A stretch of DNA of 64,000 nucleotides from Octopus vulgaris (Eukaryota): NCBI GenBank assembly GCA_951406725.2, contig OX597815.1, forward strand, positions 71,858,001 to 71,922,000, read 5' to 3'. The notes below the pieces were generated by a model, which saw nothing but the letters and a program-made list of their open reading frames with translations, ran no database searches and was not told where the DNA came from. Shown piece after piece: positions 1 through 62,873 of the stretch. Position 1 is the first letter of the stretch. Each line of letters opens with the position of its first letter. Position numbers and translations under genes: made by a program.

Positions 1-1278
1 CAGGAGAAAAGAATGGTATGACAAGAGGACCATTGTTTACAGGGTGTGCGCAAACGAAAGGAAGAGGGTAGAAGTTGTATCCATGGAATGGATAGAGGAA
101 GCCCTGCGAAGAACTGAGGAGGAAATAAATTTTCTGACTCGAGGATCCAAGTACGGGACCGTAGTTGTGCACTTTAAAAGTGAATCTGCAGCGAGGAAGA
201 TGGCAGCGAAGGCGGTGAAGTCGGAAAAGGTAACACTGTTACCTACGTATTTAAACAGGAGGATTACACGAATAAGGGTGGAGGGAGTGCCACCAAACGT
301 GGAGGCAGAATGGATTGTGGCGGCTGTGATCAGCGGCCACGAGGACGAAGTGGATATTCTCCATGCCTCGGTTAAGTCCGAGGGCTGGAGAGGCGTAACA
401 GTGGAGCTGAACGTACAGGCAGAGACCGAGGTACTGGTGGACCTGACGGAAAGCATCAGACTGGGAGAAGTGATCATGAGAGTGTGGGTGGAGGGCAGGG
501 CTCCACGTTGTTACAAGTGTGGCCTGAGGGGTCACATAAGAGCCTTCTGCCCTCCCCCAGGGAAAGAAATGGATCCCGAACCAGAGAGAGAGAAGCAGAA
601 ACCAGAGGAGAAGGAAACAGAGGAAGAGAATACACAGAAATGGAAGGAAGCTGGAAGTAAGAGGAAGAGAAGAATATGTGGAAAAAAAGAAAATAATATG
701 GAACTCCAATCTACCCCAAAACCTCCCACACCCTCTGAGTCCCACCCTATCCATGCAGACATTGAACCCACCCGCTCCCCCCAACAAGAAAACAAAAGAA
801 AAAAAGAATACACACACACAAGAGATTGAAATCGAACCCAGGCCGTACATTTGGACTATGACTGAACAGAGGGAAGTTAAAAGTCTAATGGAAGAGTATA
901 AACGGTATGATGTTGGAGAGACTAGGTATGCTGTGATTGAAAAAAAGAACATAGGTGAGTTTATGGGGAGGTGTGAAAGGGAGAATTGGGAGGTGAAAGA
1001 TATAAGAATGAGCGATGAATTCGTGGAAAGTATGAATGAGTGTTTCGGAGTAAGAGTGGATATGGAATTTATTCGTATTGGCAAAGAACATTCAAGTGAC
1101 TATGAAAAACAAAGGACAGGTAAGTGATGCTGACGGACGGGGCCGTTGGTATCGCTTTCATTTTATCATTTTTTCGTTTAACACTTCATGTTCATATAGT
1201 TTAATTATAATGTTCTATGTCCCCATGTTTTGTTATGTCCGCCATTCTTCGTAGCCCCTTAGTGGGTAATAAAGAAAT
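1..1278 (+). mobile_element. ORF1-only non-autonomous Tx1-related retroelement, copy 1 (5' end outside window)
   Basis: ORF1 homologue followed directly by a ~150-bp 3'UTR ending GCCCCTTAGTGGGTAATAAAGAAAT; no ORF2; colinear with copy 2. Confidence 0.8.
2..1127 (+). pseudogene. Tx1-type ORF1 (Gag-like zinc-knuckle protein), one frameshift near 749
   Basis: Frame open from base 2 (RRKEWYDKRTIVYRV...); knuckle CYKCGLRGHIRAFC; removing one A near 749 fuses ORF 44-829 to ORF 678-1127, matching copy 2. Confidence 0.8.
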
Positions 1279-2953
1279 ACGCGTTTTTTTGCGCTCAGTA
1301 AAATTCGGTTAAAAAAGAAAAAAGAACAAAAAGTGAATTGTGGTTGCGGAATTGGAACGTCGGTTGGTGCGGTTTCGCGTCGCACTGGTTCTGTGCGTCG
1401 CACGTTTTCTGTTCGGGAGGCCGTTTTTCGGTCTGAGGCGACTATGAGCCGCCTCTACCAAACGGATGAGATGGAAGGGAGAAATTTCTCTGAAAATTCG
1501 TCGACATCTGAGAAGGAGTTGGCGGTGAAAAAAATGGAAAGCACCTACGCAGGTATAACGAAGAAGTCAACAGAAAAAGAGATAGACCTGGCTAAGTTGA
1601 CGGACTTCCAGGAGTTCATGAAGGAGGAGGAGAACGGAGAGGTTGAGCTGTTGCCTCTAGCAGGGCGCGGAGACTGGTTCTATCGTAGAACCATTAAATA
1701 TAAAGTATTTATGAATGGAGGTAGAAAAATGGAAGTGATTAACATGGAAGCAATTGAAGAGGCTTTCAAACAGACAGGAGAAGAAATTGTGTACATGACA
1801 AAAGGATTAGAATATGGAACCATAACGGTACAATTTAAAAGGGAGAAAGCAGCCAGGAATATAGCAGCCAAGGTGGTGAGTACAGAAAAGTTTTACTTGT
1901 TCCCTTCGTATTTGAATAGAAGGACCACCAGAATTAGGGTGGAAGGAATACCTCCACACCTAGAGGGCGAATTAATAACGGCTGCGGTTATCAAAGGAAA
2001 TGAAGATAAAGTGGACATCCTCCACGCCATTATGAAATATGAAGGCGTGAGAGGTGCCACACTAGTAATGAACATACAGACGGAGGCGGAAGTTATAGAA
2101 AAGCTTACGGACAGTATAAAAACTGGAAATATTATTATGAGAGTGTGGGTGGAGGGTAGGGCGCCCAGGTGCTACAAGTGTGGCCTGAGGGGTCACATAA
2201 GAGCCTACTGCCCTCCCCCACCAAAGGAAAAAGAAAAGGAAATCGTCGCGGAAGCCCCAAAAGAGGAAGAAACCAAAGAGAATCAAAGGGAAAAAGAAAC
2301 GACAGAAGAAGAGGAGATGCAACAAGAGTGGGAAGAAGGAAGAAAAAAGAGAAAAAGAAAGAAAAAGAAAAACTGTGCGAAGCCCCAACCCACCCCAACA
2401 CCACCCGCACCCTCTGAATCCCACCCTTCCCCACAGACAGTGAACCCACCCGCTCCCCTCCAACAAGAAAACAAAAGAAAAATAATAATACAGACAGACA
2501 AGAGTTTGAAAACGAACCCAGGCCGAACATTTATATTGTGACTGAACAGAAAGAGGTTGAAAGGGTAATGGAGGAGTATGAATGGTATGAAATGGATGGG
2601 ACCAGATATGCAGTGCTGGAAAAGAAGAATATAGATGAGTTTGTGTTGAGGTGTGAAAGGGAGAATTGGGAGGTGAAAGATACAAGAATGAGCGATGAAT
2701 TCGTGGAATATATGGAGGACAGTTTCGGAGTAAGAATGGATATGGATGGTCTTCGTATTGGGAATGAACATTCAGGTGACAGTGAAAACAAAAGGACAGG
2801 TAAGTGATGCTGGCGGAGGGGGCCGTTAGCATCGCTTTCATATTATCATTTTTTCATTTTCATTTGCTCATGAATTTAATCATATTGTTCTATGTCCCCC
2901 ATGTTTTGTTATGTCCGCCATTCTTCGTAGCCCCTGGTGGGTAATAAAGAAAT
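1279..2953 (+). mobile_element. ORF1-only non-autonomous Tx1-related retroelement, copy 2 (apparently full length, ~1.67 kb)
   Basis: CpG-rich leader 1279-1443, ORF1, then 3'UTR ending GCCCCTGGTGGGTAATAAAGAAAT; no EN or RT. Confidence 0.8.
1444..2807 (+). CDS. Tx1-type ORF1 zinc-knuckle protein (1444-2541) plus ~100-aa C-terminal domain in the -1 frame (to 2807)
   Basis: First ATG 1444; STYAGI motif, RRTIKYK...GTITVQF...PSYLNRR...IPP region, CYKCGLRGHIRAYC knuckle; downstream domain conserved with copy 1. Confidence 0.8.
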
Positions 2954-3184
2954 AACATGGAGGAAATCAATTTATTGCGTTATTAGTAAGTTGATATATA
3001 TTTTTGCTCTCATACTACTTATCTCTGTTATTATATACTGTTGGTCTACCTTTTTTTGTCCATTGTTGTCTAACGGACGAAGTCAACCTTCGCGCGAAGA
3101 CTTCGCGTTGGTGTTCCCCCCTCAGTGGGGGAAAACTACAATCAATTTAGATTACCAAAGGCTTGTTAAAGCCATTTGTTCAAG

Positions 3185-4557
3185 ATGGAGTCCCCCATCA
3201 CTTATTCGCCCGTGACGAGCGAGGATGAATACCCGGCGTTGTCGCCAAGTAAAAAAGAGGCGTTGTCGCCAAGAAAAAAAGAGGCGCTGTCGCCGAAGAA
3301 AAAGAGGCGGCGTCGCCCAAGAAAATGGTAAAACCAGTACCAGCATCAACTCCAGCAAAAAAATTCGCTGAAGTGGCTGGGAAGAAAATTTAAAAAATTA
3401 ACGTGGACAACCTGGGAAAACATGCGGACTGTGTGTCAAAAGAGGGCACGGAAGTAACCGTGGCTTCAAACGCCAAAATACAGGAGGATATTTCGAATAG
3501 GAGAATAATCTATAAGACATTCAGTATAACAAACAGAGCAATCCAAAAAATAGAGGAGAAAAAGATTGAAAACTGCTTAAAGCCAATAATGGATAAAATT
3601 ACGTATATCAATCGAGGGAAGAAATACGGCACAGTGGAGGTGAGATTCACGTCAGAGGAGGTAGCGAAGAAGCTATCCATGGAACCCATAAAAGCGGAGG
3701 ATATTGTTCTCCTACCCCTGTATAAAGGCAAGAGAACTTCCAAGATCTCAATGAACAACATCCCGCCAGAAGCGGATGCCGAAGTCCTAGTGGCAGCAGT
3801 TATGGTAGGCCTGGAGGAAAAAATAAACATCCTCCAGGCCACCGTAGAAGAAGAAGAATTCTGGAAAGGGCAAAAGATAATAATAGCCATACAAGCAGAA
3901 GTACAAACCCTGGAAGAGATCCCAGAGACTCTAAGGATAAGCGAAGATGAAAGAGTCACAGTCTTCGTAGAGGGCAGAAAGCCGAGGTGCTTCGGCTGCG
4001 GTAAGAAGGGGCATGTAAGGGCGGAATGCCAGCCCCAACCCAAACCGCAGGAAGCACCTAAGCCAAAAGAAAAAGAAGACAATGTGTCACCAGAAGCAGC
4101 GTCAGACGGCCCAGAAGGGAAGACTGAAGGTGTGGAGGTGATGGTAACAGCAGAACTAGCGGCGGAGAAAAAAAAGAGCGAGGAAAAGATAAATGAGGAG
4201 GGGTGGGCAAAAATTATCGGAAAAAAAAAAAGAAAAACGGAAACCACCCCTCCCAGAGTAATTTTAAAAAAGAAAAAAGAGTCAATGAACTCATATATGG
4301 CCGTAAAAGCATCAAATAGCAGACTCGGAAACGTGTTGGCAGCCATGGCCAATGTGAAGAGAGTAGAGAAAAAAAATGACTTTGTAATTTACAAAATAGA
4401 CCGGAAGGATTACGGGCGGATAAAGTCAGATTTCTTCCATGACGTAGGCCCACTTAGGTTGGATGTAACATCTCCACATATATTCGAGGGCCTACGTCAG
4501 ACTCCCCACGAGGCCCAGAAAAAGAGAAGGAAGAAGAAGAAAAAACCGAACCACTGA
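3185..4557 (+). pseudogene. Tx1 ORF1p; likely start ATG 3185, frameshift ~3300, in-frame TAA at 3391
   Basis: MESPITYSP...(EALSPxKK)n...KKFAEVAGKK leading into ORF 3403-4557 with knuckle CFGCGKKGHVRAEC. Confidence 0.82.
3233..3326 (+). repeat. 24-bp tandem repeat x4 encoding EALSPxKK
   Basis: Units of GAGGCGTTGTCGCCAAGAAAAAAA. Confidence 0.85.
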
Positions 4558-4571
4558 TATAAAGGTAAGTA

Positions 4572-7500
4572 ATGGATTACATTTATGTTGGTTGTTTAAA
4601 TGTGCGCGGCCTGGGAGCAGGCTGGAAGCAAGGTCGCTTCCTGCATGATATCAGGTCGCGTAATTTAGATGTTATTGTTGCTACAGAAACCCGGCTAGAG
4701 GGGCCAAGAGGTCTACTCCCGCTGTTTGACGGCTACGAGAGTTTTTTCTCTCCTGGCAGTCCTACAGGCGGGAGTGGGGTGTTGGTCCTATTAAAAAGAA
4801 ACCGGGTTTCTGAGAAAAAGTTAATTTTTGCAGATCCAGAAGGTAGGCTGGTCGTCATGGATTTGACGTTCAGTAATGGTAAAGTTATCAGACTGGTTGC
4901 AATTTACGCACCCAACCATACAGGGCAAAGTGATTATTTTCGTGAACTAGAAAACTTTCTTGGTACTTCGCATTCATTAGTGGTGCTAGGAGACTTTAAC
5001 ACAATTTGCAAAGCGGATGTAGATTATGTTGGCTCGTGTCCAGATAGAAAAGGCAACAGTGGCTTCATGGAACTGCTAAGCCGCTTTGAGCTAGCAGATC
5101 CTTATAGGCTGGAATTTCCGAACGCTCCATTGTGGACATGGTCAAACAGCGACGGATCTTCCAGGTCGTATCTAGATAGAATACTAATTAGAAAAGTAGA
5201 CAGTAAAATAGCTAAGTGTCCACAGTTTTACCCGATCAGCTACAGTGATCATAAAATGGTCACTTGTAAGCTTGACATAGATAAGGTTAAAAATAGAGGA
5301 TCCGGTTACTGGAAACTTAATACGTCCCTTTTGGCGATTAAGGAGTACAAAGACCGGATTAGGAATATAATTCAGAGGGCACTATCTGGTACCATCATTA
5401 ATAACAAATGGTGGTACGCCCTCAAACGAGCCATCAAGTTTGAGTCTATTAGATATAGCATAGGAGTAGTGGCTAGAGAGGCTAGAAGGGAAACTACTCT
5501 AGTTAAGGAATTAGAGGAAGCCATGAAAACTGGCTCTGCGGCTCAGGTGGCGGCCAAGAGACTGGTGTTAAACCAGCACCTCGAGGCCAAACACATGGGC
5601 TGCATTGTCAGGGCTAGAATCCGTCATATGGGATGTGAAGGAATCAACGCCGTGAGATGGGCCCGAGTGGTGGAAGCTCAGCATGGTAACGATGCCACGA
5701 TTCGATCTTTGACGAACCAACAAGGTGAGTTGATAAACGAACCCGAGGAGATGTGTGAGGCCTTTCAGGAGCACTTCGCTCAGCTTTTCGGTGAGTGCGG
5801 CGGACTGGATAGGAGGAGGGCCTTTACGGACCTACTCGACGGTCTGCCGCGCTTATCGGGGCGAGATGCGGAGGGCTGTGAAGGGCCAATCACGCCTGAG
5901 GAGGTGGTTGAGGCAATGGCGGACTGCGGCGCGGGCAAGGCGCCGGGTTTGGATGGTCTACCCTATGAGTTATATAAGAGTATGCCAGACTTGTTCGGGC
6001 ACCTACTGGCGGAGGTCTACGCGAACTGGCAGCAGAACGGGCTTATACCCAGATCTGTGCGCCGGGGAGTAGTGACTCTCGTCAGAAAGGACCCGAGCAA
6101 GGGGGAGTGCATTGATAATTTCAGGCCCATCACTCTGCTAAACACAGAGTTGAAGATTTTGGCCAAAGTGTTATCGAAAAGATTGGCGCGTGTCGCGGAT
6201 GGTCTGATCGGAGGGGCACAGACATGTGCCGTTCCGGGCAGATCCATTCAGGATAATCTCCATCTAATGCGGTACACTATAGAGGGGTTTAATAGTGATT
6301 CTGGCAAGGGTGGGGCACTGGTCCATTTAGACCAATCTAAAGCTTTTGATAGGGTCGACCATCGTTACCTGGTATCTGCCCTGGCACAGTTCGGGCTGAG
6401 CCTTGGATTCCTCAGGTGGATTATCGAAATTTATGATAACATCGACTCGGTAGTTCGGGTGAACGGCTTCTTGTCGAAGCCGTTCAAAATCAAACGCTCG
6501 GTTCGTCAAGGGTGTCCGCTCTCCCCGCTTTTGTACGTGATGGCTCTTGAGCCATTACTGCGAAAACTGAGCGGCATCCCGAGACAGCCAGGTAATGGAA
6601 AATCAGTGTCAGCGTACGCGGATGACATCACCATCATCGTAACCGAAATGGACCACCTATGTAAAGTAGGCAAGGCCATAGAGGTGTACGAGACGGTGAC
6701 AGGAGCAAAAGTTAATCGCGAAAAGTCAGTCGGCTTGCAACTCGGCACCTGGAGAGGCAAGTCGATGCCGCCTGACAGCGTCGTGGGACGTTGGACGGAG
6801 GGTCCGATTAAACTGCTAGGGGTCTGGTTCGGTCCAGACCTCCAAATAGAGAAGAATTGGGGCGAGGTAACGAGCAAGGTGGCTGCAGTAGCCAAGACCT
6901 GGTCTTGGCGGTGGCTATCCCTGAAAGGGAGGGCGGAGGTGGCCAATGTGTTTATCGCATCGGTTATCACCTACCGCCTTTCCGTCGTTCCTTGCCCTGA
7001 TTCGTGGTTGATCAAGTTGGAAAGACAGCTCTTCTACTTCTTGTGGAAGGGCGGGAAACCACTTGTGAAACGCTCTACTTGCTGTCAACAACCGTTAAAG
7101 GGTGGGCTAGGGATGCCTTGGCTGATGATGCGCAGACATGCGCTGAGGTTAAGACATCTGTGGCTCTACCTGGATGGTGAACGGGTGTGGTCTTCGCTAG
7201 CAAAACTGATGTTTCCCAAGTTCACTAGTTTCGGTGGATGGGAAACCTGGCTGAATCGTAGATCGAAACTTGGTACTTGGTACACGGAGTGTCGCAAGGC
7301 TCTCCTGCTATTCCGTCGCTCGGGCAACGCCTGCGGTGGGGGTTCCACCACTTTCTTCTATAGAGGGTTGGTAGAGGCGGAATGTGAAGATACCTTGGGG
7401 AAACCCTAGGTCTCGACGATAACCAGCTGGCCAGTCTGTTCCGACGTACGTTCGAGCCAAGGACACTGGACAACTTCCAGAAGTCTCTGGCATGGCAATG

Positions 7501-7966
7501 CTACAGAGGAGCTCTACCTGTTCGGGATAAACTCGCAAGGCACGGTGGCCAAGACAGTCCGATATGTCCAAGATGCGGGCGGGATAGGGAAACTGTCCCG
7601 CACGCGATTGTTCATTGTCCGGACGTGTCTGAGGTGTGGGTTTATGCCGAACACCTGTTGTCAGGTACACGAAGAGTACAGCTGTCGACTGAGTCGATTA
7701 CAAAAATTGACCCACCGGATTTCCTCGTGAATGAAGGTAAGTTTCGTTTTCTCGTTGTAGTAGCAATCGCGAAAGAGGTGATATGGAAGACGAGAATGAA
7801 AGGTTTACAGTCAGGCAAGTTCATCTCCGGCCCTGGTTTGATGAATTATTTCATCTTTCACCTGAAAAGGAAGATAGGGCTGGAGAGAATATGCCTGACT
7901 AGGAGAGCGTATGAAGAACGATGGAAGGATGTAGCACGGAAGTTGCGAATGAAAGTTACAACATAA
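4572..7966 (+). CDS. Tx1 ORF2p: AP endonuclease, reverse transcriptase, C-terminal zinc finger; single frameshift at the G-run ~7397-7400
   Basis: LNVRGL, ATETR, IYAPN, GDFN, LDRIL, SDH; KAPGLDGL, FRPITLLN, DQSKAFDRV, RQGCPLSP, YADD; after the shift CPRCGRDRETVPHAIVHC runs in frame into ORF 7625-7966. Confidence 0.95.
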
Positions 7967-8211
7967 ATGTAATACCAAGTGCAACCAAAAGTATCAGTGG
8001 GGAGGCGGGGCTCGTGGGGTCCGAGCTAAACCCGCACCCACTCCACCCGTAATGTCTTCCGGTCTGTCCTATCACTCGATTTCTGTCCATTTATTGTTAT
8101 TCATGAAAATTTTTAAACCCGATTTATTGTAAAAACCCATTCGTTTGTCTGACCCCATCATCAGAATGTATTGTCCCATCTGTGTTCGCCCCTTGTGGGT
8201 AATAATAAAAC

Positions 8212-8520
8212 AACATGGAGGAAAGCACCTTCGAAAAGTGTCTTGGTGCAACTATGAAAGGTATCTAAACAGAGGCGGTAAATTCGCCACAATAGAAGCA
8301 AGGTTCGAGTCAACGGAGCGTGCAAGGGAGTACTCGACTCGAACTTGCAAAGTGGAAATATTTTATTTTTACCTTTATATCTGGGACGTAGGACGTCCCG
8401 TAAAAAAATTTAAAGCCCCCCCCCCCCCCCGAAGTAGAGGTAGGCTGGATTGTAGCCACACTTCTATACAAGAGGGAGGACAAGATACAATTGATCGAAA
8501 TTACAAAAGACAGGCTAACA
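8212..8520 (+). pseudogene. Degraded fragment of an older Tx1-family ORF1 (the insertion target)
   Basis: With frameshifts reads NMEESTFEKCL...YLNRGGKFATIEARF...LPLYLGRRTSR...PPEVEVGWIVATLL, aligning to YINRGKKYGTVEVRF...LPLYKGKRTSK...PPEADAEVLVAAV. Confidence 0.78.
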
Positions 8521-9445
8521 ATTCCTGTCTGTTATATATTTTGAGTATTGTTATCACTAACGATATCAAGATATAACTTTGTATTTTGTATTTTATGTGT
8601 AGATGTATATATATATATATAAATGTACATGTAATATGTACACATATATATACACATATATGCATGCACTAGCACTATGACCCAGCAACGACGGGTCTTT
8701 AATATCCAATAAAATAATATAAGCATTTAAAAAACCTATGAAAGACAATAAAATTATTTGAAAAAATATATCTAACTTACCTATTATTAGTCTGTGGGGA
8801 AAGAAGATACTTTTAATCAAGGCTACACGTGTTTCTGCGGTGGTGGGGTGTTTATCAAGGCTATACCTAATACATAAATCCACCAGTGCGTCCTCGAGCT
8901 TTTTATATTGACTTTATATTATTGTTTCTGACTAAAAACGGGGTTTAAAATGTATATAAGATACGATAGATGGCAGCTAGTAAAATGTTAAATAAGAATA
9001 TTGTTTTTTTTTATATATTACCCCTTATATGGTATTTTAAGATGTGCATATGCATACTTTTTTTTACCAGTAAATAAGGGAGAATCAAGGGCAATGTTTA
9101 CTTAGTTATACAGGGTGGGAGTGATGAGTATCTAATCATACGAACGAAAGGAACTGAATACTAACAAAGTTACGCTTGTAAGCTTCAGTTCTGAATTTGA
9201 ATTGACGAATGAAGGAATAAAATATAAATTAGTTAGAAAACGAAATTAATAGAAAATGATCACAAAGAAAAAACTAAAGGTACTAATTTTAGATACTTAT
9301 TATTCACTGATGATCTCCAAATGACATAATATAATAATGTGTATTACTTTTGTGGAAATACCTATTCTTCAATTGTATACCCGAAATATGGTCTTTTGCG
9401 ACAGAAAAAGCTGTCTGGTTAAATTAAATAACTAATCCATATTAG

Positions 9446-9890
9446 TGTAGCGTGGCAGTTTCAGCCATTTTGAAATATGACTATAGCGATTTCTAATATC
9501 TTCACTATTTGAAAGGCAAGGCAGAAATGATCTCGTTTGAGGTTACAGCCATCTTTGGCCAACTTGTTCCTGTTGTAAACACTAACCTGATTGGTTGACA
9601 CGTGACGCGATTTGTCTCCACTTATTTTCGCGCCACTGTCCCGAAACAACCAATCACGACCTTTGGTTAAGATTCCATTTCTGAGGCCCGTTTGAGCCAC
9701 CCAACCGGTATATAAAGGAGTATTTTCAGACACTTTTTGTCTTTGGTTCCAGTTCTTCTAAGAACTAAGTTTAGACCACAGCGCTACTCAACCAAACGAT
9801 ATACGATTGTTTCTGTTACCACTAGCTACGACGCTAATGTACAGTCACCACAGAAAGCCTTCTATCTCCGCCGCCGTCGTCACCATCATT
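9446..9890 (+). repeat. 5' LTR (first ~445 bp only)
   Basis: Direct repeat of 12765-13210; TATA-like TATATAAA at 9709. Confidence 0.93.
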
Positions 9891-10629
9891 GTACCAACAT
9901 ATGGCGTTTCTTTTCAAACTAGGGCTCCTCGACCTCCAGCGCCATCTTGAATTTTTTTGTTGATCGGAGCGACTGTTTCTCTCAAGTTGCAAACTCTCTA
10001 TTTTCTTCGTTAATACGTCGAATTGTTTTTCGTAACATTTTTTTAACTCTTGTGTTTCACTCGAAATAGATGGAATCGCACTAATAGTTTCTTTGGACGA
10101 TAACTCCAAAATACCGTCTGCTAAATCTGCCAACTGTTGAATTGAATTCTGTTTTTTTACGGCCGAGAGCAAAGTTTGGGTTTTATACGGCAGCTTATTG
10201 AAAAATACCTCTTTGAGGTACGATTCCTCTATTTGCTGGTTCCCCAGAAGTTCGTTCATCCTTCGTAGAAGTTGTGTGGGTTTTTTACTACCCAGTTCTT
10301 CGTTGTTAAATAATTTTGCGAATTCTTTTTGCTTAGAACTTGACGTACGCTTCAATATTTCTTCTTTAATAGATGAATACGAAACTGGTTCCATAGGGTT
10401 CAGCATTAAATCCCTGACTTCATTGCTTAGAGGTGGAGGCAAATTACTAAGCATGATGTTGTACTTCTGTTCTTCATTTGTTATTCTGTTAGCTTTAAAG
10501 CTTGCCTCTAGTTGTGCCAACCAAATTACGGTGTCTCCAGTCCACGGAGGACAATTCAATACATTGACAGAAGCTTGTGTGTAACTTCTGTCGATGTATG
10601 ATGCCTCGAATTCTGTTTTTCTGCTCCAT
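9890..10629 (-). pseudogene. gag: Gypsy gag, inverted relative to the LTRs
   Basis: CPPWTGDTVIWLAQLEASF...ELGSKKPTQLLRRM...ICWY; ATG 10629 with an early frameshift. Confidence 0.85.
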
Positions 10630-10827: not shown

Positions 10828-11418
10828 ACGATGTGATGTTCTACCGAATGCGCACACGTAATATTTAGAGCTAACTGTTTTGTGATTTTTGGATAATTTT
10901 TCAAAATCTTGTGGTATCTATTTCCTGAAGACGCTATGAAATATAGTGGACTAATTGTTGCCTTTCTGCATCTCATTCCCTGAATTTTTAATGACGTTTG
11001 TGTGTCTATTAATTTTTGTTTGTTAACATCTACCATTAAATGATAGTGCGCCAAAAAATCCGCTCCTAATATTGGATATGGCAAATCCGCTACTATGAAG
11101 ATCCATTTGTAGTCTCTTCGTAAATTTATATTGAGCGTTAAGCTAATCTCTCCAAATGTTTGGATTTCAGACTATTCACTGCTTGAAGAGTCATATACAC
11201 AGGTTTGGTTTTTTGTTTTAAAAGCCTTACAGGCCATATTGAACACGCTGTTCCTGTATCCACGAGAAATCTTTCTTTCGAGTTTAAGTCATAGACGAAA
11301 AACACGCGACTTTTTATAATATTATCCACAGATTTCGTCGCATCCAATCTATGGTTTAGAAGTTTTCCGAATTTCCCTTTTTTCTTAGCTAGGAAATCAA
11401 ACGCACAGGGTTTAATGC
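10828..11418 (-). pseudogene. gag C-terminus, aspartic protease and pre-RT linker, inverted
   Basis: CIKPCAF...GNSENF*, FLVDTGTACS, PILGADFL, VEHHIVT. Confidence 0.87.
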
Positions 11419-11419
11419 G

Positions 11420-12508
11420 AATAAGGATATTCGTTCATGGGTAAAGTCATGTATGCAATGTCAGAAATCCAAAGTACAACGTCATATCAAAGAACCATTA
11501 GGTACATTTGCAAATCCGGATGCGAGATTCCAACATATCCACATCGATATAGTGGGACCCTTATCTCCATGCGAGGATAATATGTATTTGTTGACGTGTG
11601 TCGATTGTTTTTCGAGATGGCCCGAGGCTTATCCGATAAAAGATGTATCTGTAGTAACTATAGCAAAAACCTTGTTTACCAATTGGATGTCTAGATTTGG
11701 CATCCCAAATGCAGTGACAACAGATCGTGGTAGACAATTTGAGTCTAGCTTGTTCGCAGAATTCAATAAATTGTTGGGGATTAATAGAATTCGTACAACT
11801 TCATATCACCCACAATCTAACGGAATGGTAGAAAGATTCCATAGACAGTTGAAAGCTTCATTAAGAACTTATTCTTATTCTAACGATTGGCTGCAGGCTT
11901 TGCCAGTGGTATTGTTGGGAATTAGAAGTGCGGTTAAGGAAACTATACAGTATTCTCCGGCTGAACTATTGTACGGAACAACATTAACTCTACCTGCTCA
12001 AATGTTCGAGGAAACTAATATTTTCAATGGAGATGTTAATGATTATGTAACTCGTCTAAAAAGATTTCTTACGGATATTCCTTCTTGTACAAGAAAATTG
12101 CAAAATGTTACAAGCTTTCTTCCTTCGGATATAAAATCTTGGACACATGTGTATGTCCGTAACGATGCAGCTCATAATTCACTGAGATATAAATACACCG
12201 GACCTTTTAAAGTCTTATCAGTTACAGACAAAACTATGACTTTGGAAATGAATGGAAAGAAAGAAAATGTCAGTGTCGACAGAGTAAAAAAAGCTTATTT
12301 CGACCAATATCCATGTCATGAAAACGGTGATATGAGCAACACACATCAACATAACGTGAAAACAAGTGACAGTCAAGGAAACAAATCCGATGTTGATGGA
12401 AAAACAAAATCAATTCTAAAGTTACCTACAAATAAAAAAAAACTAGAAGTGGTAGAACTGTCCATTTCCCAAGAAAACTTTCTCAGTTTGTTTGAGAATT
12501 TTATATAA
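11420..12508 (+). CDS. Gypsy integrase (N-terminally truncated)
   Basis: CMQCQ, HIDIVGPL, TDRGRQF, SNGMVERFH, YTGPFKV. Confidence 0.92.
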   Translation, partial: NKDIRSWVKSCMQCQKSKVQRHIKEPLGTFANPDARFQHIHIDIVGPLSPCEDNMYLLTCVDCFSRWPEAYPIKDVSVVTIAKTLFTNWMSRFGIPNAVTTDRGRQFESSLFAEFNKLLGINRIRTTSYHPQSNGMVERFHRQLKASLRTYSYSNDWLQALPVVLLGIRSAVKETIQYSPAELLYGTTLTLPAQMFEETNIFNGDVNDYVTRLKRFLTDIPSCTRKLQNVTSFLPSDIKSWTHVYVRNDAAHNSLRYKYTGPFKVLSVTDKTMTLEMNGKKENVSVDRVKKAYFDQYPCHENGDMSNTHQHNVKTSDSQGNKSDVDGKTKSILKLPTNKKKLEVVELSISQENFLSLFENFI

Positions 12509-24388: not shown

Positions 24389-24501
<113 letters not shown>

Positions 24502-24502
24502 A

Positions 24503-25135
24503 TAATAAAAGGCTTCCAAATAAGGAAGCGTAGTGCTAGAAACACAAAAAGGGATAAATTCATGAAAGGAATGAAAATTAAAAACATTTACCATCTCAGC
24601 TATATCCCAGACCGAACGGTTTCTACCTCTTTTTTAGCAAACACACAGAATATATTTGCCAGGCCAGGTTCTTCAGTTCTTCAACATATTTGATTATGTT
24701 TTAATATTGCTTGATAAATTTGTTCGTAAATCTCTTACCGGCATCCTCTCTGTTCGCCGGGTATGGTTTGCGTCTGCGCAGAGGTTTGAAAAGTTAAGGT
24801 ATACAAACCGTTAGATCTACATGTGCTTCTAACAGTCTGTGCGTCTAGGATTACGAAGGCTTCCCACTGAAGAACCTGGCCTGGCAAATATATTCTGTGT
24901 GTTTGCTTAAAAAGAGGTAGAAACCGTTCGGTCTGGGATATAGCTGAGATGGTAAATGTTTTTAATTTTCATTCCTTTCATGAATTTATCCCTTTTTGTG
25001 TTTCTAGCACTACACTTCCTTATTTGGAAGCCTTTTATTATATTTCTATACGAAAAATATATAGTCTAACGACTAATTCGTCTTTTGTGCTAGGCCAGTG
25101 GTAATAATAATTTATTTTATTACCCTATTTGATTA
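24503..25135 (+). mobile_element. Penelope-like mini-element with ~175-bp inverted repeat (24503-24677 / 24866-25040) in (TA)n
   Basis: Near-perfect inverted arms, 3' tail extension, TA tracts on both sides. Confidence 0.8.
24862..24938 (+). ncRNA. Type I hammerhead ribozyme, predicted cleavage after C24933
   Basis: Stem I TCCCA/TGGGA, CTGAAGA, stem II ACCT/AGGT, GAAA, stem III CCG-TT-CGG, GTC triplet. Confidence 0.85.
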
Positions 25136-30631: not shown

Positions 30632-30745
30632 CCTCCTTTGACAACACAATCTTTAAACCTATATTCCAAATGGTTACGTATGGATAGATTGATGGATCTC
30701 TTTCGTTCGACGATGACAATTCAGTTGTTTAATATAGTGAATTAC

Positions 30746-31148
30746 AAGGCGGCGAGTTGGCAGAAACGTTAGCACGCCGGGCGAAATGCTTAGAGGTAGC
30801 AGTATTACGTCTGCCGTTACGTTCTGAGTTCAAATTCCGCCGTGGTCGACTTTGCCTTTCATCCTTTCGGGGTCGATAAATTAAGTACCAGTTACGCACT
30901 GGGGGTCGATGTAATGGGTTTAATCCGTTTGTCTGTCCTTGTTTGTCCCCTCTGTGTTTAGCCCCTTGTGGGTAGTAAAGAAATAGGTATTTCGTCTGTC
31001 TGCACGTTCTGAGTTCAAATTCCGCCGACTTTGCCTTTCATCCTTTCGGGGTTGATAAATAAAGTACCAGTTCTGTACTGGAGTCAATTTAATCGACTGG
31101 CCCCCTCCCCTAAAATTTCGAACCTTGTCTCTAGAGTAGAAAAAATAT
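30746..31148 (+). mobile_element. Dimeric SINE family B (head-core-Tx1-like tail, then partial head-core-tail A); also 58412-58998(-), 61576-61977(-), 35882-36290(-); monomers/fragments ~29465-29680, 31515-31650, 40185-40557, 42435-42580, 51410-51770, 55410-55535, 56260-56445
   Basis: B-box GAGTTCAAATTCC, core GTCGACTTTGCCTTTCATCCTTTCGGGGTCGATAAA; TSD AATATAGTGAATTA at 30731-30744 and 31144-31157. Confidence 0.88.
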
Positions 31149-31662
31149 AGTGAATTAAGTGACTGAGCGACGTGAACCCATAACACAAGGGTCGGAAAAA
31201 TTTTGATATCATTGGCTCCTTGATGGAATCGTGAAATCACTTAACGCCTCCCTTCAACATCACGTAAATTTCTAAAATAAAATATAAAAGTATAATTATT
31301 ACGAAAAAAAATTATTCGTTGAAAAGCAATAATTTCTTCTTTCCTTTGTGTTTTTACTGCTTGTTAAGAAATATTTTTATTTTCAACAATACAATGAAAA
31401 CACTTAACGAAACGGATAAAGAACAATAAAAATTCTGCTGTATTAGATATTTTGATAGAGTCTGAATATTTAATGTGAAATAGGTGTTTGGTATATACCG
31501 GTTATTGTATTAATACTGGTTTCAAGTTTTGGCTCAAGGCCAGCAATTCCAGGGAAGTAGGTAAGTCGATTACATCGAGCCCAATGCTCATCTGGTACTT
31601 ATTTTATCGACCCCGAAACGATGAAAGACAAGGTCGACCTCGGTGGAACGAAAATTTGGACG

Positions 31663-35871: not shown

Positions 35872-36459
35872 CTAGCGATCTTATTTCTTTATTGCCCACA
35901 CGGGACTAAACATAGAGGGGACAAACAAAGACAGACAAAGGTATTAAGTCGATTACATCGACCTCAGTGCTTAACTGGTACTTACTTTATCGACTGAGAA
36001 AGGATGAGAGACAAAGTCGATTCGGCGGAATTTGAACTCAGAACGTAACCGTAGACGAAATACCTATTTCTTTACTGCCCACAAGGGGCTAAACACAGAG
36101 GGGGCAAACAAGGACAGACATACGGATTAAGTCGATTACATCGACCCCAGTGCGTAACTGGTACTTAATTTATCGACCCCGAAAGGATGGAAGGCTAAGT
36201 CGACCTCGGCGGAATTTGAACTCAGAACGTAACGGCAGACGAAATACTGCTACCGCTAAGCATTTCGCCCGGCGTGCTAACGTTTCTGCCAATCGAAAGC
36301 CACCATTATGTATATGACGGTAAATCTTACATTGGTGTGCATTTCCATAGTAACAAACAGCGCCGTAGTCTGACACTTTCACCTCTCTCATTCACTACCA
36401 CAAATGTTGGCGAGCAAAATCATTTTGTGTTCGTGTTATTTCTGCCTAGCGATCTTATT
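35872..36459 (-). mobile_element. SINE B dimer ending in the Tx1-like tail, with a ~155-bp captured 5' segment and 14-bp TSD
   Basis: TSD CTAGCGATCTTATT at 35872-35885 and 36446-36459; 36287-36444 is the reverse complement of 36819-36975. Confidence 0.85.
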
Positions 36460-38309: not shown

Positions 38310-38394
<85 letters not shown>

Positions 38395-38638
38395 ATACAA
38401 ACAAGAAAGCACAAAAAAAACACAACAACACGAGGACGTGGAACAAATATAGTATTATTGGACGCTCAGGAAAGAAGAAAAGAAGGAGGGTTTAACGTTT
38501 CGAGTGGAGCTCTGCGTCGGAAACATAGGAGAAGGAAAGATCCAGAGAAGGGAAGACAGAGGGAAAAAAATCGCCAACGGTACACACAGGTAAAAAAGAG
38601 ATGACACAGGAATGAATGATTATCCAATGAACTTCATT

Positions 38639-56300: not shown

Positions 56301-59300
56301 CTTTACGTTCTGAGTTCAAATGCCATCGAAGTCGACTTTGCTTTTCATCCTTTCAGGGTCGATAAAATAAGTACCAGTTGAGCCCTGGAGTCGATGTAGA
56401 CTTACCCGCTTTCCCGAAATTACTGACCTTGTACCAAAATCTCAAACCATTTTTAATTGCTTTATCTACCGTTAAAGAGTAAATAAATAAAATGCCTATG
56501 CTCATCATATGTCACAACAGCGCCCCTACAATTCCATTAATTAGTTAATTTTTGGCTCAAAACGCAAAAGGACCCAGAAGTAGGCAAAGCAAGGCCACTC
56601 CATATTAAATCGTTTCACTTTCCCTTTTTCCTTTTTATACTCACTTGATTTTAGATTGATCCCGCAGACTAGGGGTCTGCAACGATAGCACTGAAAAAAA
56701 AAGGCAAGAAAATACCTCTTTTTTTTATTATTCACACTATTTTCAATCAAAATTTTTGACAGACATTTCAAGACTTAAGTTGATTTATTGTTGTTTTGTT
56801 GACCTTACAAAGAATTATCGGTCAGTTCAGTTTAAGTAGAATCTGCGGTGCTGGAACAGTCGATCAAAGACTCAATTGAATGAACGTTCAAACCGTGACT
56901 GTTCTCTCTTTGTTGCTCTTCCAAGATTTATGATTGTAAAACATGTGGTTGCCATTTTAAAAGATGGCGGACACTTAGATGAGAATACTTGGTTATGCTG
57001 CTATTGAGCAGCTCTAGTGACTATAGAGAAGTCTTTGTGGTGGTTAAAAATATAAATTAAGTTTGGCAGGGGACTAATACCAGTAATTATTGCATTTGGG
57101 GTCAAGTGTGGAACCTTAGAACCTTCTAGGCGGGAAATTTTCTCAGTTCATTGCATCCAAATAACTACAGCTGAAGAAAAATAGTTCGTGTTATCCATTT
57201 ATCAGAACCGTGTGTGTGTGTGTGTGTGTGTGTGTTCATACTGAAATTTCATACAGAACTTTTTAGTGAAATAATCACATTTTCTAAAAGGCTCTTTCAC
57301 CTTCATTCAATCCTCTCTCTGACTTCCTCTTTCTTTTTCTCTCCCAGCCTCTCTCTCCCCTTCTCTCTCCCTTCATCTCCCCCTCTCTCTCTTCATCTCC
57401 CCCTCTCTCTCTCTGTATCCTTTCAAACGTTACTACTTTGTACTCCAATCGCAATGACAAGAAGAGAAATATCTTTTATTCTGAAATTAAGATGGCGATG
57501 ACGGTACAGTTGCTATGCTGGATTCACAATGTTTTAAAACATTTTTTCTCAATATTCCGGACTCCCTCCCCCACCTTCCTGCTCCTCCTTTCCTCCTCTT
57601 CCTCCTCTTCCTCCTCTACCTCCTCCTCCTCCTCTTCCTCCTCCTCCTGCATCTCCTCCTCCTCACCTCCTCATTCTCTTCTTTCTTCATGAAGGAGCTG
57701 AAGAATGAAAGAGACAGAAGAAAAAAAAGAAAAGAAAGAAACAAAGATAGAAAGCAAGAATTCCGAACTGATGTAGTGAAAAACAAAAACAAAGAAATAA
57801 AAACAAATAGAAGACATTTGCGTTGTATGTTTGTCAAAACTAAGAGTGGAATGAAAACCTCTAACTTTATAACGTTCGTGTTTGGTAGACAAAAGGACAT
57901 TTTATGAGTTTCATTTTATTTTTCTCTCCCTTGATTTTCTCTTTCTTCCCTCTTCCCGTGATTCTATCACGCAAACCAACAAAAATTAACAAAAGACTAC
58001 AATAGAAATATTACTTGAACAGTTACGAAGCCATTAGACTCATAACAGAAATCATTGACACTCGTCTTCCTAAATAAATCGTTTGTTATCATCACCAACC
58101 GATCATATATTTATTATTGCCATTATTGAGACAGTGCTAGGTTAGAACCATAGACTGACTAAATCACAGCAGGAAGGAATGATTGGACAAATAGACTTGC
58201 GTGTTTATCTTTCATCTTTTATCTTTCATTTGTTGCAGTCAGTGGACTGTGGCCATATTGGGGCACCGATCTGATGGCTGCAGTCCAGTGCTTCTCAACA
58301 TTTTTAAACTATGGGCCCCTTTGGTTCCAATTTTAGTCCACAGGACCCCCACCCAACCCAGCAGCCATTCGTTGTTTAAAAAATTCCTATTATATTTTTA
58401 TAATTAAATATTCTTTTCTACTCGAGGCACAAGGCCCGAAATTTTGAGGGAGGGGCCGGTTGATTAGATCTACCCCAGTACGCAACTGGTATTTAATTTA
58501 TCGACCCCGAAACGATGAAAGACAAAGTCGACTTCGGCGGAATTTGAACTCAGAACGTAGCGGCAGACGAAATACATATTTCTTTACTACCCACAAGGGA
58601 CTAAACACAGAGAGGACAAACAAGGACAGACAAACGGATTAAGTCGATTATATCGACCCCAGTGAGTAAGGATGAAAGGCAAATTCGACCTCGGCGGAAT
58701 TTGAACTCAGAACGTAGGATACCGGACGAAATAACGCGAATCATTTCGCTCGGCGTGCTAACGTTTCTTATTTCTTTATTGTCCACAAGGGACTAAACAT
58801 AGAGGGGACAAACAAGGAGAGACAAAGGGATTAAGTCGATTACATTGATTCTAGTGAGTAACTGGTACTTATTTAATCGACCCCGAAAGAATGAAAGGCT
58901 AAGTAGACCTCGGCGGAATTTGAACTCAGAACGTAGCGGCAGACGAAATACCTCTAAGCATTTCGCTCGACGTGCTAACGTTTCTGCCAGCTCGCCGCTT
59001 TTATGATTAAATATTATTAGGAATTGCATTAAAAAACTAAAATATTTTGTGTTGTACAAGTATAACCAATTTAATGCAGATAAGTTTTAGCAACAAAATT
59101 TTACATGGACCTACAGGGGCCATGTGGACCCCGGTTGAGAATCACTGATGTAATCGAACAAATCGACCCCGGAACTTATCTCTTTCTTTTTTTTTAAGTT
59201 CGGTACTTACTCTCTTTCTCTTTTTCTCTCTTTTACTTGTTTCAGTCATTTGACTGCGGCCATGCTGGAGCACCGCCTTTAATCGAGCAACTCGACCCCG

Positions 59301-61145: not shown

Positions 61146-62873
61146 GAAAACGGTGGTTTACAAGGGATTTTCTCTAATTCGTAGCCTGTACATAGTTTTT
61201 TTGTATGTAGGGTCTTCCATACTTTTTTAATCTATATGGTCGTACATTGGCTTTAGAGAATACGTTTTAGTGATTTTCACATTTTTTAAATTTATTATTT
61301 ATTCATATGTTGTAATTGTGTATTATTTCTTGGTTAGAGAATATTATAAAAGTGAAAGTATTTTGTCTGTTTATTTCGACTGTCCACCTGTTATTATTTA
61401 TTTATATGTTGTAACTGTATATTATCACTTGGTTAGAGAATATTCTTTTCTACTCTAGGCACAATGCCCGAAATTTTGGGGGAGGGGGTCAGTCGATTAG
61501 ATCGACTCCAGTACGCAACAGGTGATTATTTATTTATATGTTGTAACTGTAAATTTTTACTTGGTTGGAGAATATTCTTTTCTACTCTAGGCACAAGGCC
61601 CGAAATTTCGGGGGAGGGGCCACTCGATTAGATAGACCCCAGTACGCAACTGGTACTTAATTGATCGACCCCGAAAGGATGAAAGGCAAAGTCGACCTCG
61701 GCGGGATTTTGACTCAGTAAATACAGACGAAATACCGCTAAGCATTTCGCCTGGTGTGCTAACGTTTCTTATTTCTTTATTGCCCACAAGGGGCTAAACC
61801 TAGAGGGGACAAACAAGGACAGAGACCCCAGTGCGTAACTGGTACTTAATTTATCGACCCCGAAATGATGAAGGGCAAAGTCGACCTTGGCGGAATTTGA
61901 ACTCAGAACGTAACGGCAGACGAAATACCGCTAAGCATTTCACCCGGTGTGCTAACGTTTCTGCCAACTCGCCGCCTTTGGTTAGAGAATATTATAAAAG
62001 TGAAAGGATTTTGTCTATTTATTTATTTCTACTGTTCACCTGCGACGATTATTAAATTGACTAGGAATACTGTACACGATGAATATCCAATGCCAAACAA
62101 TCTTAATCTCCTTATTTAAACTGCATTAAACTTTGGCAAGCTTACCTTTACTTATTCTGAGTTACTTGAAACGTGATGTTCCCCCCTATCTTCTATTTGT
62201 TGATACCTTTGTTTATCTACCAATACGTTGTTCCACTTTAAGGATGCTTATTTACCTATCCATTATGATATTTAGAACGCGATATCTTTTCTCTGCGAAC
62301 TACTAAAGATTCAACGCAGTATTCATAAAATGAAGTCAAACTCTTCATGTCTTCATTTTACGTTACCTGAAGTCAATATCAGAGTGGTCATACACTGTAA
62401 GCAAGTAGAAAATATATTCCTTTAACTTTATATAATACCTACGAGTAGGTATTATATTGCTATTTTTTAACGTACCAATCATACTTCTCTCTGAAAAAAT
62501 AGTTCCCTTTGCTATTGAATAAACTAAACTTGCAGCGGGGAAGTTTCTACGCTTTCCTTCAATTGCCTTACACCATTTATGAGGCTGTTTCTGACAAGAA
62601 ATTTTGCTTTCATTTTGTAGTCATTATCCATAAAATACTCCCAAAACACTTCAGTAGTTCTACTTTGCTTTGCTTGCAAACTTATATGTTCTATGATCAT
62701 TAAAGTGCAACGACCTCCACAATAACCAGCCATCAATTTGGTTTTCTGTTCCTAGGTTAATCTGAAACGTAGATTGCCGTACTACCCATAAACCTTCTCG
62801 GTAGTCCAATTATTTGGTGAAAAAAAATACCACCAAAGCAACTTAAACCGTCCAAAGAACGGATGCGTTTGCT

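What the first reader, a model, noticed from the sequence alone, without database searches (positions are those of the whole stretch)
2941..8520. Four related elements stacked at one nick site inside an older ORF1
Seen: the 3' ends of both ORF1-only copy 2 (2953) and the Tx1 (8211) join the same sequence AACATGGAGGAAA, which is the start of a decayed ORF1 of the same family. Copy 1 abuts copy 2 (1278/1279) with no target sequence between. Known: many Tx1 families are target-specific. Inference: self-targeting (own ORF1 or the family 3' end) and/or RT template jumping between tail-bearing RNAs builds arrays.
Basis: partly seen in the sequence, partly recalled or inferred. Interest (0 to 1): 0.7.

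Follow-up and report, generated by a model that had tools for sequence, protein, structure and literature searches.

The report
Jumping genes stacked at one site
Three related copy-and-paste jumping genes, probably from an octopus, sit nose to tail at one exact spot inside the remains of an older relative; such stacking is already known, but the target (a relative's gene) is unusual and is so far seen at this one place only.

Summary
Observation confirmed, with corrections. AACATGGAGGAAA occurs only at 2954-2966 and 8212-8224. It is the 13-bp target-site duplication (TSD) of a near-intact L1/Tx1-type LINE (2967-8211), so the two 'identical joins' are one coincidence: copy 2's tail ends exactly at the TSD's edge. 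The right flank is a real decayed ORF1 (8212-8505), and the TSD is in-frame ORF1 sequence. It lies in mid-ORF1, not at the start, and belongs to a third lineage (28-43% aa identity), so it is not the elements' 'own' ORF1. Copies 1 and 2 are ORF1-only elements under purifying selection. They are joined without a TSD and share the LINE's 3' tail, as do six SINE units elsewhere in the window, none of which is followed by the 13-mer. Best reading: one nick position was used repeatedly by target-primed reverse transcription, probably through preference for this ORF1 site (about 0.45); re-priming in one coupled event is the main rival (about 0.3). TSD-sandwiched tandems inside another transposon are published for Tx1/SINEU. 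Genome-wide flanks were not available. Host probably Octopus.

The parts
1..1279 (+). ORF1-only element, copy 1 (5' end outside the window): ORF1 core with CCHC knuckle (open 2-829), a downstream 97-codon frame (834-1127), 3' UTR and family tail ending AAAGAAATA
   Evidence: no ORF2 match in 1-2954 by tblastn
1279..1280 (+). Copy 1 / copy 2 head-to-tail junction with no target-site sequence
1280..2954 (+). ORF1-only element, copy 2: about 164-nt leader, ORF1 1444-2541 (365 aa, open), downstream frame 2502-2807, 147-nt 3' UTR, family tail; the last A is shared with the TSD
2954..2966 (+). Left copy of the 13-bp TSD AACATGGAGGAAA
2967..8211 (+). Near full-length L1/Tx1-type LINE, no poly(A), ends ..GTGGGTAATAATAAAAC
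3185..4570 (+). LINE ORF1 (CCHC knuckle); frame interrupted around 3300-3390 and near 4555
   Evidence: N-terminus matches P0122; 148 of 150 aa identical to P0123
4572..7966 (+). LINE ORF2: APE endonuclease, reverse transcriptase, zf-RVT; one frame break near 7400
   Evidence: PF03372 E 1e-13, PF00078 E 1e-30, PF13966 E 1e-9; human L1 ORF2p E 4.6e-65
8171..8211 (+). LINE 3' tail shared with copies 1 and 2 (1252-1279, 2928-2954) and with SINE units
   Evidence: 0 of 2000 shuffles reach the observed score in each of three comparisons
8212..8224 (+). Right copy of the TSD; reads N-M-E-E in frame with the old ORF1 (profile columns 21-24)
8212..8505 (+). Decayed ORF1 fragment of a third lineage (the target), three frame breaks; its knuckle, 3' half and tail were not found in the window
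30921..30985 (+). SINE unit carrying the same 3' tail, joined to an internal position of a second SINE unit
35882..36129 (-). Two SINE units with the same tail (ends at 36065 and 35882); the second ends in non-SINE flank unlike the 13-mer
58577..58833 (-). Two SINE units with the same tail inside a trimer
61770..61823 (-). SINE unit with the same tail inside a dimer

Best explanation
An L1/Tx1-type LINE system with a stringent shared 3' tail used one first-strand nick position more than once. SHOWN: a near-intact LINE lies between two exact 13-bp repeats that are in-frame sequence from the middle of a decayed, distantly related ORF1; an ORF1-only element with the same tail ends exactly at the left repeat; a second ORF1-only element is fused to its 5' end without target DNA. 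INFERRED from the standard mechanism (target-primed reverse transcription with staggered nicks): the LINE's endonuclease nicked the old ORF1 just before AACATGG and the insertion duplicated 13 bp. That rebuilt the target at the left junction, and family ORF2 protein then primed there on the tail of a non-autonomous ORF1-only RNA. Copy 1 arrived in the same cDNA by a template jump (or as a ready-made dimer). INFERRED, least certain: the register is repeated because the endonuclease prefers this site in that older ORF1 lineage, as Tx1 families prefer sites in other transposons. The architecture is about 0.9 secure; the sequence-preference step about 0.45. The order of insertion is not fixed by the data.
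For: Exact, non-extendable 13-bp repeat flanking the LINE, 2 copies in 64 kb, within the 12-18 bp stagger given for L1 (PMC10830420, passages). NMEE scores 9.6 bits at profile columns 21-24, a position fixed by the downstream alignment: 0 of 20000 random 12-mers and 0 of 3831 ORF1-region 12-mers reach it, and it equals or exceeds 65 of 66 family members. Tail shared by copy 2, the LINE and a SINE unit: 0 of 2000 mononucleotide shuffles in each comparison. Copies 1 and 2 are a real ORF1-only family: core dS about 2.1, dN 0.28, ratio 0.13 over 179 codons, same ORF2-less layout. The LINE looks young (148 of 150 aa identical to P0123; one frame break in ORF2) while the target has three breaks in 295 bp. 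Precedent: SINEU-3/Tx1-Mar insert into an old Mariner, and tandems 'sandwiching a TSD' are read as sequential insertion (PMC4494074, sections 14-15); R1 and P tandems likewise (PMC5932611, passages). Mosaic divergence of copy 1 vs copy 2 (dS 2.1 in the core, 0.22 further 3') suggests template switching among these RNAs.
Against: One locus only. 0 of 6 SINE units with the same tail are followed by the 13-mer, including the 1 that ends in non-SINE flank. The site falls in a variable loop of the ORF1 family (commonest residue at column 21 in 8 of 67, at column 22 in 20 of 69), a poor long-term target. No clear excess of database ORF1 proteins starting at the site: 6 of 85 N-termini at column 22 against 5 at column 80, where Met is a natural variant (8 of 69) (top 150 of 769 hits only). 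The endonuclease hairpin loop aligns without gaps to promiscuous human L1-EN and is 2 residues shorter than the Tx1L graft, though loop length is not a clean predictor. Copy 1/copy 2 lacks the TSD that pure sequential insertion predicts. Most Drosophila non-LTR families, such as jockey, also form tandems (PMC5932611). The LINE here is probably not the direct partner of copies 1 and 2 (ORF1 34-39% identical).
Confidence: 0.5

Rival explanations
1. Coupled event without sequence specificity. After the LINE cDNA jumped to the upstream target overhang and copied the 13 nt, its 3'-OH stood at the original nick, unligated. ORF2p re-primed there on copy 2 RNA and then jumped to copy 1 RNA. Landing in an old ORF1 was chance or local clustering.
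For: Explains the exact register and the TSD-less copy1/copy2 junction together. L1 ORF2p makes template-jump concatemers and is modelled to jump onto target DNA (PMC10830420, passages). Tandems are common among Drosophila non-LTR families (PMC5932611). All three elements look young. SINE tails show no common target.
Against: Needs three different RNAs at one lesion, and leaves the ORF1 target as a coincidence. Re-priming at the filled-in nick is my inference; no paper read here shows it.
Confidence: 0.3
2. Tail-directed self-targeting: copy 2 was there first, and the LINE's endonuclease nicked at the end of the family's own A-rich tail (bottom strand ..CATGTT/ATTTC..), as Zepp elements nest in each other.
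For: All three stacked elements share the tail; the junction has a TT/A step like the short L1 consensus 5'-TTTT/AA (PMC1950540, passages); nested Zepp clusters exist (PMC3446292, passages).
Against: Copy 1's tail is followed by copy 2's 5' end with no duplication, which tail-directed insertion of copy 2 would not give. 0 of 6 SINE tails carry an insertion at their end: what follows 5 of them is an internal piece of a SINE unit. It does not explain the ORF1 target.
Confidence: 0.12
3. The 'old ORF1' is a 5'-truncated earlier insertion that happens to begin at AACATGG, and the real target is host sequence upstream of the window.
For: The 5' half of the old ORF1 is not visible; tail-to-internal tandems with 5'-truncated elements are the common type in Drosophila (PMC5932611).
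Against: The duplicated 13 bp are ORF1-coding in frame, so the old sequence was already DNA at the target when the LINE arrived; a truncated insertion should run to a 3' tail, and none was found.
Confidence: 0.05
4. Assembly artefact, or tandem duplication/unequal crossing-over.
For: Repeat-rich region at the window's edge; several frame breaks lie in or near homopolymer runs.
Against: Copies 1 and 2 are only 70% identical in the ORF1 core and the LINE's ORF1 is 34-39% identical to theirs in protein, so they are not duplicates; the junctions fall at element ends to the base.
Confidence: 0.03

Closest known systems
Tx1-Mar LINEs and SINEU-3 of crocodilians (PMC4494074; passages and sections 14-15 read)
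   Same: Tx1-type machinery inserting into an old, disrupted transposon; tandem insertions sandwiching a TSD; non-autonomous followers using the same site. Other Tx1 families there target Harbinger and LTR elements; Xenopus Tx1L targets Tx1D.
   Different: Here the target is the ORF1 of a related LINE, the followers are ORF1-only elements, one junction has no TSD, and specificity is not demonstrated (n = 1, against 313 of 347 flanks for SINEU-3).
Double-insertion tandems of R1, P and other elements in Drosophila (PMC5932611; passages)
   Same: Head-to-tail elements separated by a target duplication.
   Different: Those are tandems of one family; here different lineages sharing a tail are stacked inside a LINE relic.
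ORF1-present non-autonomous LINEs: HAL1, HeT-A, Ag-Sponge (PMC5786205; passages)
   Same: ORF1 kept under purifying selection, ORF2 absent, LINE-type 3' end kept.
   Different: That passage derives them from the L1, Jockey and CR1 clades; these carry a CCHC-knuckle ORF1 and a structured non-poly(A) tail shared with a Tx1-like LINE of a mollusc. The HAL1 paper itself was not held.
Zepp of Coccomyxa/Chlorella (PMC3446292; passages)
   Same: LINEs nested in related LINE copies, forming clusters.
   Different: Zepp nests in its own family, one cluster per chromosome; here the target is a divergent lineage and nothing is known about clustering or centromeres.
SINE-LINE pairs with a common 3' tail (PMC4824008, PMC3747384, PMC4758252; passages)
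   Same: A SINE shares its 3' about 60 nt with a LINE.
   Different: In 5 of 6 cases here the tail is internal in a composite, and 3 of 4 composites moved by a second tail (TSDs starting AATAT). The passages seen name no partner LINE for octopus SINEs.

Membership tests
L1/Tx1 group of non-LTR retrotransposons | ORF2 with N-terminal APE endonuclease, RT and C-terminal zinc-binding region | tested here: met
   PF03372, PF00078, PF13966; nearest solved protein human L1 ORF2p E 4.6e-65 against R2 1.2e-24
L1/Tx1 group of non-LTR retrotransposons | Insertion flanked by a short TSD | tested here: met
   13-bp exact repeat
Tx1 clade | RT phylogeny grouping with named Tx1 families | not testable with these tools
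   No Repbase or labelled Tx1 references; most of the 120 listed ORF2 hits are unnamed. L1-Tx1 families are reported in O. vulgaris (13 recent families, 421 insertions; PMC13282606, passages).
Tx1 clade | ORF1 with a CCHC zinc knuckle (feature recalled, not from a call) | tested here: met
   zf-CCHC in 4 of 4 aligned ORF1s, best E 0.009, below Pfam's cut-off; above the cut-off in 5 of 14 relatives scanned
Target-specific Tx1 families | More than 20% of flanks share one target (criterion in PMC4494074) | not testable with these tools
   No genome; prokaryotic genome scans returned nothing. In-window proxy: 2 of 3 stacked tails and 0 of 6 SINE tails precede the 13-mer.
Target-specific Tx1 families | Tx1L-like 11-residue endonuclease hairpin loop | tested here: inconclusive
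   The loop has the human L1 length, 2 shorter than the Tx1L graft; 9 close relatives have the longer loop; specific R1Bm has a shorter graft, so length is not diagnostic
ORF1-present non-autonomous LINEs (HAL1/HeT-A type) | ORF1 present and selected, ORF2 absent, LINE 3' end retained | tested here: met
ORF1-present non-autonomous LINEs (HAL1/HeT-A type) | Multiple independent dispersed insertions with their own TSDs | not testable with these tools
   Only two adjacent copies; the left end of copy 1 is outside the window
Self-nesting LINEs (Zepp type) | Target is the element's own family | tested here: not met
   Target ORF1 is 28-43% identical to the three inserted ORF1s and on a separate branch (FastTree, 55 sequences, weak deep nodes, no formal clade test)
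RNA-gene-targeting Tx1 (Keno and others) | Flank is an snRNA, tRNA or rRNA gene | tested here: not met
   0 Rfam matches at gathering threshold; 0 tRNA genes; the flank is ORF1

The most novel reading that the evidence does not exclude
An octopus Tx1-like LINE lineage has an endonuclease aimed at a fixed site inside ORF1 of another lineage of its own group. It would use relatives' ORF1 as a safe harbour and disable them on arrival, and its ORF1-only parasites, which share its tail, would follow it there to build mixed arrays by repeated nicking and template jumps. The same tail was also taken up by an abundant octopus SINE.
Probability: 0.4. Interest if true: 0.62.

Novelty: new variant of a known kind. 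Interest (0 to 1): 0.42.

Why it matters
If genome-wide flanks confirm it, this adds 'ORF1 of a sister LINE' to the list of Tx1 targets, gives a case of one LINE lineage inactivating another, and supplies an APE endonuclease with a definable target. If flanks are random, the locus becomes a clean natural record of re-priming and template jumping among three RNAs at one lesion, which bears on the unsettled second half of LINE integration. Either way it points to a partner LINE for an octopus SINE tail and to an ORF1-only family in a mollusc. The stacking itself is not new, and one locus cannot show targeting, so the score is moderate.

Tried and rejected
RNA-gene target: Rfam 0 and ARAGORN 0. 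RNA-guided targeting: copy 2's 3' UTR has an 11 of 13 antisense match to the TSD (2893-2905), but 40 of 2000 shuffles reach it, copy 1, the LINE and the SINE do not show it (932, 1937 and 503 of 2000), and duplex energies are no better than shuffles: rejected. The 11 of 13 sense match in copy 2's ORF1 (1741) is two codons off the aligned position and 63 of 400 shuffles reach it: not significant. Similar 5' ends of copy 2 and the LINE: 693 of 5000 shuffles: not significant. SINE nests as proof of self-targeting: 3 of 4 composites are bounded as wholes by 14-17 bp TSDs and the junction type tracks the tail variant, so the junctions look inherited: not counted as support. Breakpoint footprint in database ORF1 proteins: inconclusive. 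The 97-codon frame after ORF1 as a C-terminal domain: dN/dS 0.86 and no significant homologue: unresolved. Tail folds gave no consistent structure and had no shuffle control. Scans of prokaryotic genomes for the ORF1 profile and the tail found nothing. The whole-window repeat finder was swamped by microsatellites. Source names for the database relatives could not be looked up, so they stay unassigned. Metagenome and viral contig collections stayed unchecked.
Full report
Setting. The window is microsatellite-rich eukaryotic DNA. The only database hit for copy 2's ORF1 is Octopus sinensis LOC118767527 (49% identity), so the host is probably an octopus; the species was not determined. Only the window was available, not the genome.

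Anatomy. Four + strand pieces fill 1-8505. Copy 1 (1-1279) and copy 2 (1280-2954) encode ORF1 and have no ORF2 match. The LINE (2967-8211) has ORF1 from 3185 (its N-terminus matches P0122) and ORF2 with APE, RT and zf-RVT domains; its nearest solved relative is human L1 ORF2p (E 4.6e-65; R2 1.2e-24). Placement in the Tx1 clade proper could not be tested; the CCHC-knuckle ORF1 and the lack of poly(A) fit it (recalled criteria), and L1-Tx1 families are reported as recently active in O. vulgaris (PMC13282606, passages).

The repeat. AACATGGAGGAAA occurs at 2954 and 8212 only, cannot be extended, and has no one-mismatch neighbour on either strand. It brackets the LINE and is its TSD. That register is far beyond chance and needs a mechanism.

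The target. The right flank aligns to the LINE's ORF1 from nt 3550 across three frame breaks (score 144; maximum 37 in 25 control windows). It is mid-ORF1, about 120 codons in. The TSD itself is ORF1: NMEE at profile columns 21-24 scores 9.6 bits, reached by 0 of 20000 random and 0 of 3831 ORF1-region 12-mers, while the four codons before it are tail with stop codons. The old ORF1 is 43%, 35% and 28% identical to the LINE, copy 1 and copy 2 (86 columns), and sits on its own branch among 51 database relatives (FastTree; deep nodes weak). The wider family has 769 representatives at E <= 0.001. The target is therefore a relative, not 'self'. Its knuckle and tail were not found in the window and its 5' half would lie upstream.

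The ORF1-only elements. Copies 1 and 2 are not a duplication: 70% nucleotide identity in the core, 84% further 3', 91% in the 3' UTR and 76 of 79 in the last 80 nt. Core dS is about 2.1 and dN 0.28; the next 97 codons give dS 0.22 and dN 0.19. The core was under purifying selection, and the 3' part appears to have been exchanged more recently (inference). Both keep the motif AGGTAAGT(G/A)ATG that in the LINE overlaps the end of ORF1 and the ORF2 start, which fits loss of ORF2 by internal deletion. This is the ORF1-present non-autonomous type described for HAL1, HeT-A and Ag-Sponge (PMC5786205, passages).

The tail. A profile of the three tails finds 9 places: the three themselves and six SINE units (E 9e-7 to 1e-4). 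SINE-to-LINE, SINE-to-copy 2 and copy 2-to-LINE similarities each exceed 2000 of 2000 mononucleotide shuffles. Of the six SINE tails, 3 join (G/T)GTATTTCG, 2 join AGAAACG (both internal SINE positions) and 1 joins other flank; 0 join the 13-mer. Three of four composites are bounded by 14-17 bp TSDs starting AATAT, after a different terminal tail, so those nests look inherited and say little about targeting. Calling this SINE tRNA-derived or one of the OR/OK families is recalled, not tested.

Mechanism. Staggered nicking and target-primed reverse transcription give TSDs, and L1 ORF2p jumps templates (PMC10830420, passages). Insertion of the LINE would rebuild the target at its left junction; a second priming there on a tail-bearing ORF1-only RNA gives copy 2's register; a jump to copy 1's RNA, or a dimeric RNA, gives the TSD-less junction. 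Template jumping alone cannot put 13 bp of target between copy 2 and the LINE. Why the same nick: preference for this ORF1 site (about 0.45-0.5), re-priming at the unsealed nick in one event (0.3), or nicking at the family tail (0.12). For the first: Tx1 families often target other transposons and build TSD-sandwiched tandems (PMC4494074, passages and sections 14-15), and it explains both the register and the ORF1 target. Against it: n = 1; the SINE result above; the site lies in a variable loop, with no clear breakpoint excess among the top 150 of 769 relatives (6 of 85 N-termini at column 22, 5 at column 80); the endonuclease loop has the human L1 length (PMC1950540, passages); and tandems are common among Drosophila non-LTR families (PMC5932611, passages). 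A genome scan also selects for such coincidences. These probabilities are judgements, not computed.

Novelty. Stacking at a reused site, transposon-targeting Tx1 elements, ORF1-only LINE derivatives, nested LINEs (Zepp; PMC3446292, passages) and SINE-LINE shared tails (PMC3747384, PMC4824008, PMC4758252, passages) are all published. In searches I saw no paper describing a Tx1 family that targets a LINE ORF1, or this octopus tail-sharing set. For most hits I saw only the listing and the start of the abstract; the library lacks most subscription papers and Repbase; the HAL1 paper was not held; and no supplements were read (those of PMC13282606 and PMC4494074 could bear on this). Absence from print is therefore not established.

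Verdict. A real, precisely jointed retrotransposon stack; a new variant of a known kind. Interest 0.42; about 0.62 if ORF1 targeting holds genome-wide (probability about 0.4).

Noticed in passing
window 30743-31150 (+), 35882-36292 (-), about 58400-59000 (-), about 61570-61980 (-): Composite SINE dimers and a trimer whose inner unit ends in the LINE's 3' tail; three are bounded by 14-17 bp TSDs starting AATAT and end in a different tail, suggesting a second partner LINE.
   Followed up: partly
window 1-1279 vs 1640-2954: Mosaic divergence between the two ORF1-only copies: saturated synonymous divergence in the ORF1 core, about tenfold lower 3' of the knuckle/linker.
   Followed up: partly
window 1118-1129, 2798-2809, 4563-4574: Shared motif AGGTAAGT(G/A)ATG: a stop overlapping an ATG at the ORF1/ORF2 boundary that is also a perfect 5' splice-donor consensus; kept in the ORF2-less copies.
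   Followed up: no
window 834-1127 and 2514-2807: A 97-codon frame, stop-free in both copies but out of frame with each ORF1; dN/dS 0.86; no significant homologue. May be a fast-evolving ORF1 C-terminal domain.
   Followed up: partly
window 30980-30993: At one SINE junction type the tail end GAAATA is followed after 2 nt by its reverse complement TATTTC; not seen at the other junctions; may be chance.
   Followed up: no
window 2893-2905: 11 of 13 antisense match to the TSD in copy 2's 3' UTR; tested and not supported as a guide.
   Followed up: yes
window 9834-10628 (-) and 11393-12508 (+): DUF7041 and integrase (rve) frames on opposite strands, probably remains of LTR retrotransposons.
   Followed up: no
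window 47372-48535 (-): Separate RT fragment of another LINE (PF00078 E 1e-14; 27% identical to this ORF2).
   Followed up: no
window 8506-8720: The old ORF1 stops before its knuckle and runs into an AT-rich dispersed repeat (matches at 38324-38409 and elsewhere); the sequence near 8668-8700 resembles a Helitron-type end (recalled, untested).
   Followed up: no
window 24493-24677 and 24866-25050: 185-nt inverted repeat, 97% complementary, 188 nt apart; looks like a MITE.
   Followed up: no
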